Below are positions 49,701 through 58,400 of a DNA stretch of 64,000 bases, piece by piece (within the stretch, counting starts at the first letter, position 1; every line of letters begins with the position of its first letter). Under the pieces are notes generated by a model, which made no database searches, had not been told where the DNA came from, and saw nothing but the letters and a program-made list of their open reading frames with translations. The position numbers and the translations under genes are program-made. The stretch spans positions 558,001 through 622,000 of the forward strand of contig CM035353.1 in the NCBI GenBank assembly GCA_020137815.1. Reading direction: 5' to 3'. This stretch comes from Hormiphora californensis. Taxonomy: Eukaryota; Animalia; Ctenophora.

Positions 49701-52700
49701 TCTTCAACGCCGTCAAAGTGGCAGAGTACACTACTGAAGGTTGTTCAAAGTGGGGGATTGACAAGTTTAGATACGTTAAGTTCAGCAAGTCCAGTCCTGT
49801 GGTGTCTTACAGAAAGAAACCTTCAACTCGGTTTTCAGGTAACTATGATTTTCCGAATTTCCATTTTCATCGATTGAGCACGACAATTTAAACATCCCGG
49901 CCTCACTATTACCCAATTGCAGCATGGAGAATAGCAGAGGAAGGATTGTTCATGGACTGGAACTTGACAACATACCCCCTTCAACTCAGAACACCATCCC
50001 ACCTCATGAGTAGTAATGAAAACCTAAAAGTGTCCCTCCAAGGTCCCAAATATTGGCTGACAACTTTGATAATCAAATTCGAAACTACATTGAAGGTCGC
50101 CATTAGTAATGGGCATCACAAAGACAGCCGATACTGCCAACTGGATACGATTGGTGATCTACCTAAAACTGAAGAAGATCGGCAGTGGATGTTTACTACA
50201 AATGGAATCTCCAGTGACGGGGTAATTCTGATACAAATATATGGAGAAAGCTAAGTCGCGTTTTATGAAGTTGTCACCCCAAACTCATGCACATGACACA
50301 CTTATTGTGATGTTTATAAATGTTTTATTTGTCATTTGTGTTTCAAACTTTTCAACACTACTTTAAACAAATTAATTTGAGGTTTCGTTTTTCCCAATTC
50401 GCTAAGTTCTTTGGTATTTATTCGGCTCTTTATACTTTTTTGTTTTGTCTTTTCTGGGTTTATCAGAGACTGGTAACAGTTTCTGTGTGAGAAAGACAAG
50501 GCCAAAGACAAGAGAAGACCGGATCTTACCCGGAGGATTGACACTCGTTGTCGTTAGGCGAGGCCTTGAATTTATCCTGCAGATCGTAGCTAGTGATGAC
50601 ATTGAAGGCAATCCCGCTAAAGTTATGGACGAGGAAAGAGTTGGACACGTTTATGAAAGATAATCTACCTGTGGATATGGACCCAATCTTGCAAGGAGAT
50701 TGTTCGCAAAAGGAATGACCGAATTGACCTTGATTTTCAAATCCACATTGTGAAGGATCGATTCCATATCGTTCAATGTTTCAAGTGTCAACGCTATGGT
50801 CACAAGTCAGACTCAGTGATGTGCCCCAGGAGAGACAGCGGTGATCCAGTCTGTACCTACTGTGCTGGAAATCATCGGTACAAGGATTGTCAAGTGAAGA
50901 AAGATAGAAAAGTTGACTCCAGATGCTGTGCAAACTGCAAGAGTAGCCGAAGCAAGATCGATCAGCTCAATGCAACCACCCACACAGCGAACAGTTTCCA
51001 GTGTCCCTTCTTTATCATGGAGAAGGAGAGATTGATGAGTAGAACAGCCGGAGCTGAGATGTTAAAAAACGAGTACAGTCGGAAGGCACGAGACTTCTTG
51101 GAAAGAAGGAGAACTCACTAAGAGTTGGAACATTGAACTGCAACTCCCTTGTCAATAAGACTGCTGGTGTACTGGAACACCTTGAGGACCAGCTTGTTGA
51201 TATTTGTCTTTTTCAAGAGACCTACCTGAGGAAAGGTGACAATGCTAAACATCATGAGATAAAGGAAAGAGGATGGGAAATACACTCGGCACCGAGGAAG
51301 CAGAGGATTGGTGGTGGAGTAGCAGTGGTATACAGAGCGGACCTGGGTGTTAAATCTGGACCTACCAAATGTTTCAAGACCTTTGAGTGTACAGAGACTA
51401 CTGTTGGAAATGCTAGTGAGATGTACCGGCTAGTAAACATCTATAGGCCACCATACTCGAAGAAGGCACCTCATACCCAGAGCCACTTCCTGGATGAATT
51501 CAAGGGATATCTTGAGGAACTAAACTGTAAAGTCGGGACACCATTAATCATGGGAGACTTCAACTTTCACATGGAAAGGCCTGATGAATTTTATCCAAAA
51601 AAACTACAGGAGATGATCGAGGAGTTTGACTTCAAACAGATGGTTCCATTGGTTTCAACCCACAGACATGGAGGTACTCTGGACCTAGCCCTGATGGATG
51701 CTACTGTAGCAGATTTTCTTGAACCAGTTAGGGTCTTAGAGGAGGGAACTACTTCAGACCACCATCTTGTTACAGTGGACCTACAACTGACTACGAGGAT
51801 TAGTAAGAGGAAACGGCCGGAGACTATTTGGTATCGGGACTTTTCGAAGGTGGATGTGGAGAGTTTTAATGAGGATCTCAAAGCCAGTGGACTGTTTACC
51901 TCACTTGCTGAGGAAGAGGATGTTAATAGCCTTGTTGAGAAGTTATATGGAACGTTGCTAGCCCTGGTTGATAAGCACTGTCCAATGAAGAAGAGAAGGA
52001 AGAAAGAGAAGTATACACCATGGATGGATGAAGAGCTGCTAACCCTCCGGAGGAAGAAGCGGCGTGCTGAGAGGAAGTGGAGAAAGGACAAGACTAAAGA
52101 GAAGCCGCAGCTAAGGGCCATGTATGTGGAACTAAGGTCAGCTTTCAACAAGATGGAGGTCAGAAAACGATCAGAATACACCAGAAGAAATATCGAACTC
52201 TGTGGACGCGATCAAAAGAGGCTCAACCAACAACTGAGCAAGCTACTGGGTAACTCCAATGTTATCCTCCCAGATGTGGTCAACCCGGAGAAACTAGCGA
52301 CTGAGTTTGGAGAGTTTTTCAAGTCCAAGATTGACAAACTACAGAAGAAGATTGGTGTCAAGATTGAAGAGTTGGGTGAAAAGAAATCAACTGAGTCCGG
52401 TGCTATTGAAGGAGAGACAGAAAGATTTGAGACGTTCAGTCTTATGACTGAAGATGAAGTGGCAAGCCTTGTAAAGAGCCTGCCGGATAAGTTCTGTGAC
52501 TTGGACCCAATCCCGACCTCTCTGCTGAAGCAACTTCTCCCTACACTACTACCAATGCTTACCAAGATCGTAAACACTTCTCTGCAGAGTGGTGTATTCC
52601 CGTCAGGACTGAAAGAGGCTATTGTGAGGCCCACGATCAAGAATACATCTGGAGATGTTGACTCTCTTGCGAACTACAGACCAGTCTCGAATCTCAGTGT

Positions 52701-58400: not shown

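What the first reader, a model, noticed from the sequence alone, without database searches (positions are those of the whole stretch)
50338..55851. A LINE that begins with the full spliced leader: candidate promoterless, trans-splicing-dependent retrotransposon
Seen: the 5' boundary of this L2/CR1-like LINE is a 44-nt sequence ending AATTTGAG, followed by a T-rich 5' UTR, ORF1, ORF2 and a (GTT)n tail. The element is in sense within an intron of a host gene. Recalled knowledge: this 44-mer is the ctenophore SL added to mRNAs by trans-splicing. The downstream sequence (GTTTCG...) does not look like an SL RNA intron, so an SL gene is unlikely. Inference: the template RNA was SL-trans-spliced and reverse-transcribed to its 5' end. 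The SL's terminal AG regenerates an acceptor at the same point, so each copy could be cut out of a host pre-mRNA and recapped by trans-splicing. This would replace the internal promoter or 5' ribozyme used by other non-LTR elements.
Basis: partly seen in the sequence, partly recalled or inferred. Interest (0 to 1): 0.92.

Follow-up and report, generated by a model that had tools for sequence, protein, structure and literature searches.

The report
Comb-jelly LINEs headed by spliced leader
A broken jumping gene (LINE) in a comb-jelly genome begins with the short leader that these animals splice onto their messenger RNAs, as do another copy of the same element and several distantly related LINEs, so these elements likely copy themselves from leader-spliced RNA; whether they lack a promoter of their own is untested.

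Summary
The core observation holds and generalises. Bases 50340-50381 match the published ctenophore spliced leader (SL) and 42 of 43 nt of the exon of an SL RNA gene found here in a 778-bp SL-5S repeat. What follows in the window is an APE-RT LINE, not the SL intron. A copy of the same family at another site is also SL-headed, and contigs from two species run from the SL into this 5' UTR at about 4x and 7x unique-flank depth. Of 34 metagenome loci with the SL 3' end, 23 are host mRNAs, 1 is the SL gene, and 10 are elements (7 clear LINEs, 3 ORF1-like). All join exactly at the SL splice point and lack only 0-8 leader bases. SL-targeted insertion and a one-off event are rejected. Corrections: this copy is defective (689-nt ORF1 deletion, 1405-bp ORF2 duplication), is antisense in a PDI-like gene's intron, and its sense host-gene model is imperfect. 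Best reading: copying from trans-spliced RNA, leader likely renewed each round (0.65). Promoterless self-excision is untested (0.3); the SL ends in GAG, unlike 12 of 12 predicted host acceptors.

The parts
50340..50381 (+). Spliced-leader copy: 42 of the 43 nt of the SL exon, first base missing; 5' end of the insertion
50382..50595 (+). U-rich 5' UTR (214 nt), about 97% identical to sister copy L021; YAG at 50580-50582, 13 nt before the ORF1 ATG
50596..51121 (+). ORF1 remnant with CCHC knuckles; 689-nt internal deletion and frameshift at 50695-50696 (GG microhomology) relative to the 404-aa ORF1 of L021
   Evidence: (loose ends at 50695/50696 in X5, X7)
51058..52851 (+). First ORF2 frame (597 aa stop to stop): APE endonuclease and start of RT, ends at the duplication junction
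51438..54248 (+). Exact tandem duplication of 1405 bp inside ORF2 (51438-52843 / 52843-54248); real or assembly error not tested
52742..55498 (+). Second ORF2 frame (918 aa stop to stop): partial APE, full RT (RVT_1 E 4.7e-31), C-terminal region with L2-like motifs (clade label recalled)
55499..55851 (+). 3' UTR and (GTT)7 tail at 55831-55851; no target-site duplication visible
50266..50280 (.). Left arm of a 15-bp inverted repeat that brackets the insertion (likely a small MITE-like target)
   Evidence: high summed depth at 50212-50315
55867..55881 (.). Right arm of the same inverted repeat
48654..56896 (+). Nested gene or gene remnant with signal peptide and repeated modules; predicted exons 48654-48693, 48840-49241, 49419-49838, 49923-about 50221, 56381-about 56896; model breaks at exon 4/5
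   Evidence: no Pfam hit above cut-off
48075..57240 (-). Approximate large intron of a PDI-like gene (WCGHC exons at about 57240-57352 and 47600-47841); the LINE is antisense to it

Best explanation
This is a defective copy of a two-ORF APE-RT LINE family whose long copies begin with the host's spliced leader joined exactly at the leader's splice point, likely because the element's RNA is trans-spliced like a host mRNA and then reverse-transcribed almost to its cap. Shown: the leader heads copies at different sites and in two species, and heads at least six other LINE families. Inferred: the junction is made by the spliceosome; reverse transcription stops 0-8 nt short of the cap; the leader is likely renewed from host SL RNA in each round or often, with the leader's own last AG as acceptor, which would keep it identical to the host leader, single and nearly full length. 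Untested: where the precursor RNA starts (upstream read-through or a promoter inside the element).
For: (1) Same family, other site: L021 is 97% and 95% identical to the window element, has a different flank, 35 of 43 SL nt and an intact ORF1. (2) Single contigs run from inside the SL into this UTR: X4 (organism A) 50356-50516 at depth 1706 against 425 for the flank contig; X7 (organism B) 50355-50696 at 609 against 87 (rough ratios). (3) 10 of 10 non-gene, non-mRNA loci from the SL scan carry an element ORF behind the SL; ORF1 identity between the six L2-like families is 31-61%, ORF2 40-67%, and L020 has an unrelated ORF1 plus APE. (4) In 11 of 11 elements the SL ends at its last AG with no SL intron behind; 0 of 30 flank or end segments match the rest of the SL-5S unit. 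(5) Leader bases missing at the 5' end: 0, 1, 1, 1, 1, 2, 2, 2, 3, 5, 8. (6) 115 of 115 SL positions outside my search pattern are unchanged in the 10 loci, while the next 43 nt share only 7-39 identities between families. (7) No second or relic leader in 11 of 11. (8) Precedent at RNA level: full-length Hydra CR1 transcripts carry an SL (PMC12220107).
Against: No RNA evidence for this family was obtained. The SL ends in GAG; 12 of 12 predicted host cis acceptors are YAG, and a small matrix scores the SL end at -1.5 against -0.5 to 5.0 for held-out acceptors (too few sites to decide, and these are cis, not trans, acceptors). The six L2-like families keep a 145-215 nt UTR with conserved motifs behind the SL and a YAG 1-13 nt before the ATG, which looks like promoter plus outron; no joint skipping that UTR was listed in 4 of 4 runs. 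The scan used an exact 29-mer ending at the AG, so families with a changed, absent or 3'-shortened leader could not appear. Low-coverage assemblies favour repeats, so the lack of SL-headed host retrogenes says little. All leaders seen are one sequence, so tracking of host SL change is not shown.
Confidence: 0.65

Rival explanations
1. The leader was captured once per lineage by trans-splicing and is now a fixed, DNA-templated part of the element: a promoter in the leader or the 5' UTR starts transcription at about leader position 1, with no new trans-splicing at that point.
For: GAG is an atypical acceptor. Conserved motifs follow the SL in related families: GTT(T/C)C in 5 of 6 L2-like families, a shared GCCC..GGGCAG stretch in L016, L031, L032. 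One leader per copy and variable first bases fit this too. Trypanosoma cruzi L1Tc uses an internal promoter and is unspliced in a trans-splicing host (PMC1874656 abstract). An SL exon acting as promoter element in Ascaris is recalled, not checked.
Against: It needs separate captures in at least two unrelated LINE types plus the ORF1-only elements, and strict conservation of an AT-rich 43-mer (115 of 115 free positions) while neighbouring UTR and proteins diverge widely; 10 of 11 copies lack the first leader base or more, so a DNA-templated leader should erode.
Confidence: 0.22
2. Leader-LINE chimeras arise by RNA ligation or template switching of the reverse transcriptase onto SL RNA or SL-capped mRNA, as for U6/L1 chimeras.
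For: Such chimeras are known for mammalian L1 (PMC6789731 search listing; PMC11838501 passages). SL RNA is abundant.
Against: The junction is the exact exon end in 11 of 11 elements with no SL intron or mRNA behind it, and the LINE side is the same UTR start in window, L021, X4 and X7. Ascertainment by the pattern weakens the first point.
Confidence: 0.06
3. The LINE inserts into SL RNA genes or dispersed SL copies (NeSL, SLACS or CRE style), so the leader belongs to the target.
For: GT follows the leader in the window; hundreds of genomic SL copies are reported (PMC8527503). The empty allele at this site was not seen.
Against: No flank matches the SL-5S unit (0 of 30 segments); 3' flanks are not SL intron in 4 of 4 elements whose tail is seen (window, L008, L015, L032); the enzyme is APE, not the restriction-like type of SL-specific clades; the insertion lies between two arms of an inverted repeat.
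Confidence: 0.03
4. One-off event or assembly artefact at this locus.
For: The copy has two large lesions, one a 100% identical duplication that may be an assembly error.
Against: Flank-SL and SL-UTR junctions are in read-derived contigs, and L021 and organism B repeat the structure.
Confidence: 0.02

Closest known systems
SL-capped CR1 and other TE transcripts in Hydra (PMC12220107; passages and supplementary legend seen)
   Same: Full-length LINE RNA receives the host spliced leader; about 30% of TE Iso-Seq reads carry an SL.
   Different: Reported at RNA level; the passages seen do not say that genomic copies or family consensus begin with the SL. Here the evidence is DNA only.
Dinoflagellate SL-relic retrogenes (PMC12014239, PMC3942190; passages seen)
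   Same: Trans-spliced RNA is reverse-transcribed and the leader enters the genome.
   Different: Those are host genes and the new leader splices at an AG inside the old one, leaving a 15-nt relic. Here the passengers are the LINEs themselves, the leader has no internal AG past base 2, and no relic is seen in 11 of 11.
SL-gene-specific non-LTR elements: NeSL, SLACS, CRE (PMC4640811 passages; primary papers recalled)
   Same: LINE adjacent to spliced-leader sequence.
   Different: They encode a restriction-like endonuclease and sit inside SL genes; this element is APE-type, dispersed, and carries the leader with it.
L2/CR1-group LINEs (clade label from recalled motifs)
   Same: ORF1 with CCHC knuckles, ORF2 APE-RT, microsatellite tail, no clear TSD.
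   Different: 5' end is a host spliced leader.
R2 elements (co-transcribed, 5' HDV-like ribozyme; recalled)
   Same: Under the novel reading, the element is freed from a host transcript and needs no promoter.
   Different: Release would be by the spliceosome and give a capped RNA; not site-specific; not shown here.
U6/L1 and mRNA/L1 chimeras (PMC6789731 listing; PMC11838501 passages)
   Same: A cellular RNA piece forms the 5' end of a LINE insertion; trans-splicing and promoter co-option are proposed for some.
   Different: Sporadic events there; here the rule for whole families with one exact junction.
Trypanosoma cruzi L1Tc / Pr77 (PMC1874656 abstract)
   Same: LINE in a host with SL trans-splicing.
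   Different: Opposite solution: internal promoter and unspliced RNA.

Membership tests
Ctenophore spliced leader | Identity to the published leader and to the SL RNA gene exon | tested here: met
   43/44 to PMC8527503; 42/43 to L022 exon; same leader caps 23 mRNA contigs
SL RNA gene | Exon followed by donor and structured SL intron, in gene context | tested here: not met
   L022 has GTAAG, z -3.87, 5S linkage; window z -0.16 and no match to the unit
APE-type LINE | ORF2 with APE endonuclease and RT | tested here: met
   PF03372 and PF00078
APE-type LINE | ORF1 and a 3' simple-repeat tail | tested here: met
   CCHC ORF1 aligned with six relatives; (GTT)7
Autonomous LINE copy | Intact ORF1 and ORF2 | tested here: not met
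   689-nt ORF1 deletion with frameshift; ORF2 duplication with stop
L2 clade (CR1 group) | RT phylogeny with reference clades | not tested
   No named references among ORF1 homologues; label rests on recalled C-terminal motifs
SL-targeting elements (NeSL, SLACS, CRE) | Restriction-like endonuclease | tested here: not met
   APE domain; definition from PMC4640811
SL-targeting elements (NeSL, SLACS, CRE) | SL gene sequence on both flanks | tested here: not met
   0 of 30 segments match the SL-5S unit
Retroposed trans-spliced RNA | Leader joined at its exact splice point, no SL intron | tested here: met
   11 of 11 elements; pattern ended at that AG, so partly by construction
Retroposed trans-spliced RNA | Relic leader behind a new leader, as in dinoflagellates | tested here: not met
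   0 of 11; not expected if the only usable AG is terminal
Promoterless, host-transcribed LINE (R2-like life cycle) | No internal promoter; RNA cut from a host transcript | not testable with these tools
   Needs CAGE or reporter assays
Promoterless, host-transcribed LINE (R2-like life cycle) | Leader's terminal AG is a usable acceptor | tested here: inconclusive
   GAG against 12 of 12 YAG; score -1.5, above the first two downstream AGs (-3.7), below the pre-ATG YAG (-0.6)
Promoterless, host-transcribed LINE (R2-like life cycle) | Full-length copies biased to sense orientation in transcription units | not testable with these tools
   No whole genome held; this copy is antisense to the PDI-like gene and sense to the nested gene

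The most novel reading that the evidence does not exclude
Ctenophore LINEs of several unrelated families have given up their own promoter and use the spliced leader as a self-renewing 5' end: any transcript that reads into a copy is cut at the genomic leader's last AG, recapped with a fresh leader, and copied back, so the element's 5' boundary is defined by the host spliceosome. These 5' ends would account for much of the unexplained 718 and 491 genomic leader copies reported in Hormiphora and Mnemiopsis.
Probability: 0.3. Interest if true: 0.86.

Novelty: new variant of a known kind. Interest (0 to 1): 0.68.

Why it matters
A LINE must rebuild its exact 5' end in every round; the known answers are an internal promoter or a self-cleaving ribozyme. 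Families whose genomic copies routinely start with the host's spliced leader point to a third answer that uses the spliceosome. It gives a testable source for the hundreds of genomic leader copies that the Hormiphora genome paper counted without explaining (718; 491 in Mnemiopsis; PMC8527503), and a practical marker for full-length LINEs in ctenophores. I found no report of SL-headed genomic LINE families in nine completed literature searches, but three key older papers were not seen, and SL-capped CR1 transcripts are already published for Hydra. The session also turned up a ctenophore SL RNA gene in an SL-5S repeat.

Tried and rejected
SL RNA gene, SL-targeted insertion and one-off event: rejected (see rivals). 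Rfam at 50200-50700: three chance hits below gathering score. No RNA holder listed for the stretch; the RNA-guess run X14 held SL pieces and one ORF2 piece at depth 2.2 but no SL-UTR contig: no evidence either way. X5 has no contig over about 50416-50471; a hole proves nothing. SL pattern in viral contigs and genome contigs: 0 hits; ORF2 relatives in viral contigs: none of 49 pattern matches confirmed. ORF1 profile search: 19 unnamed proteins, no help for clade. PDB profile search: only generic RT and L1 endonuclease hits. The 689-nt ORF1 deletion is not a GT-AG intron. A cis intron from the SL junction to the pre-ATG AG was considered; GT follows the SL directly in only 2 of 6 L2-like families. 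The 12-site acceptor matrix is too small to decide anything. The sigma-70 scan does not apply to a eukaryote and was ignored. No second copy of the bracketing inverted-repeat element with both arms was found in the window or loci. Earlier scan notes by place and by sequence: none.

Full report
Observation. The window holds one spliced-leader match. Bases 50338-50381 are 43/44 identical to the Hormiphora californensis leader printed in PMC8527503 (passages seen; window bases). That paper counts 718 genomic copies in H. californensis and 491 in Mnemiopsis leidyi and does not say what they are in the passages seen. The organism is therefore inferred to be a ctenophore. Behind the leader lie a 214-nt U-rich UTR, ORF1, an APE-RT ORF2 and (GTT)7 ending at 55851.

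State of this copy. It is defective. ORF2 contains an exact 1405-bp tandem duplication that splits it into frames of 597 and 918 aa; whether the duplication is real was not tested. ORF1 lacks 689 nt relative to a sister copy and is frameshifted at 50695-50696; contigs of runs X5 and X7 leave the window sequence at that point, so other copies have the longer ORF1. The insertion sits between the arms of a 15-bp inverted repeat, with no visible target-site duplication. It is antisense in a large intron of a PDI-like gene and sense to a nested gene whose model fails at exon 4/5.

The real SL gene. A scan of metagenome contigs for the last 29 nt of the leader gave 34 loci. L022 is a 778-bp tandem repeat of a 5S rRNA gene (Rfam 106 bits) and a 43-nt leader exon followed by GTAAG. 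It folds into three hairpins at z = -3.87; the window's leader plus downstream bases gives z = -0.16. The window matches exon positions 2-43, so the insertion starts at 50340. The exon's first base is inferred from L022 and three mRNA contigs, not mapped. L022 may come from another species.

What else carries the leader. Of the 34 loci, 23 are leader-capped host mRNAs (median 6 nt from leader to ATG), 1 is the SL gene, and 10 are elements. L021 is the window's own family (97% and 95% identical) at another site, with 35 of 43 leader bases and an intact 404-aa ORF1. L003, L007, L008, L015 and L034 are related LINEs (ORF1 31-61% identical among the six families; ORF2 40-67% where present). L020 has an unrelated ORF1 and an APE domain. 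L016, L032 and L031 have ORF1-like frames with no Pfam hit above cut-off; L032 is about 1.15 kb with an (AAT)n tail. Calling these three retroelements is an inference. Six of the ten have 38-461 nt of flank before the leader; the other four have 1-17 nt. L020 shares its assembly with four mRNA contigs, so it may be a read-through RNA or DNA carry-over.

Read-derived contigs (4 of the 22 listed runs were laid). In X4 (organism A, possibly the source sample) one contig covers 50156-50366 with no difference at depth 425, and another covers 50356-50516 with two substitutions and one gap at depth 1706. In X7 (organism B) one contig covers 50355-50696 at depth 609 against 87 for a flank contig. So the leader-UTR junction is multi-copy in two species, by rough ratios of 4 and 7. 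No loose end before 50382 is among the 24 rows shown (133 not shown), and no joint that skips the UTR is listed. X5 has a hole over part of the UTR and X14 no contig at the junction. In the three DNA runs 17-23 contigs leave at 50381 with mixed sequence, so many other things are leader-headed in these genomes.

Why trans-splicing. In 11 of 11 elements the leader ends at its splice point with no SL intron behind it. None of 30 flank or end segments matches the rest of the SL-5S unit, and 4 of 4 visible 3' flanks are not SL intron. The copies lack 0, 1, 1, 1, 1, 2, 2, 2, 3, 5 and 8 leader bases, as expected if reverse transcriptase runs to a capped end (inference). Outside the 29-nt search pattern, 115 of 115 leader positions in the ten loci are unchanged, while the next 43 nt share 7-39 identities between families. 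Renewal from host SL RNA explains this most simply. There is never a second or relic leader; in dinoflagellates a relic arises because the new leader splices at an AG inside the old one (PMC12014239 passages), and the ctenophore leader has no AG between base 2 and its end. Bias: the exact pattern cannot find families with a changed or absent leader.

What is not shown. No RNA evidence was obtained. The leader ends in GAG, while 12 of 12 predicted cis acceptors in the window are CAG or TAG; a matrix from those sites is inconclusive. The six L2-like families keep a 145-215 nt U-rich UTR with conserved motifs after the leader and a YAG 1-13 nt before the ATG. This could be a promoter and an outron for the translated mRNA. 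A leader captured once and now templated from DNA therefore stays a live rival (0.22). Promoterless self-excision needs the GAG to be used and transcription to come from outside; I put it at 0.3. Orientation bias could not be tested.

Known context. Hydra full-length CR1 transcripts carry an SL and about 30% of TE Iso-Seq reads do (PMC12220107, main-text passages and supplementary legend; figure not seen). SL-specific NeSL, SLACS and CRE elements are restriction-like-endonuclease elements inside SL genes (PMC4640811 passages). L1Tc uses an internal promoter and is unspliced (PMC1874656 abstract). Mammalian L1 chimeras are sporadic (PMC6789731 listing; PMC11838501 passages). Passages of PMC7986045, PMC3942190, PMC6053224 and bioRxiv 10.64898/2026.05.21.726589 added nothing on SL-headed LINEs. 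Derelle 2010, Malik and Eickbush 2000 and Chapman 2010 were not seen; they and Repbase entries could already mention such elements. Nine completed searches listed no paper whose title or abstract opening reports SL-headed genomic LINE families. Earlier notes of this scan describe the same pattern in dinoflagellates, Perkinsus and Euglena, none in a ctenophore; they are unchecked AI notes and are not counted as support.

Verdict. A real feature, general to several ctenophore LINE families: a new variant of a known kind. Copying from trans-spliced RNA with likely renewal of the leader, 0.65; interest 0.68; 0.86 if the promoterless cycle is proven.

Noticed in passing
L022:693-830 and 1471-1608; 5S at 263-381 and 1041-1159: Ctenophore SL RNA gene in a 778-bp tandem repeat with 5S rRNA; three-hairpin fold, z -3.87; several CACGTG motifs upstream; Sm site not located.
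   Followed up: partly
L016, L032 (and L031): Short leader-headed elements with 38-48 nt UTRs and ORF1-like frames (L016 and L032 27% identical); L032 is about 1.15 kb with an (AAT)n tail and no RT. Possible non-autonomous, ORF1-only LINE derivatives.
   Followed up: partly
L016, L020, L032 right after the leader: TTTYAG directly behind the leader in three elements; it resembles an acceptor or an initiator.
   Followed up: no
window 50580-50582; L003, L007, L008, L015, L034: YAG 1-13 nt before the ORF1 ATG in all six L2-like families (GTGTTTTAGGATG conserved in four), like the leader-to-ATG spacing of host mRNAs.
   Followed up: partly
window 50391 (loose ends in X4, X5, X7): A second sequence shares the leader plus 10 nt and then diverges, in both organisms; it differs from the SL gene intron and is probably a sister LINE family.
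   Followed up: no
window 59339-62002 +: A second non-LTR element: 887-aa frame with weak RVT_1 and a C-terminal region resembling restriction-like-endonuclease elements (HERO-like, recalled); apparently 5'-truncated and without a leader.
   Followed up: partly
window 48654-56896 +: Nested gene of repeated phase-1 modules with a signal peptide; in-frame stop in the fifth module; organism B skips 74 nt at 50040-50115. Possibly decaying.
   Followed up: partly
window 17673-18616, 13220-14242, 11810-12920 and others: Many long palindromic, MITE-like repeats, e.g. a 947-bp self-inverted stretch at 95%.
   Followed up: no
L008 ORF2: In-frame run of about eight 13-residue Gly-rich repeats between the endonuclease and RT regions.
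   Followed up: no
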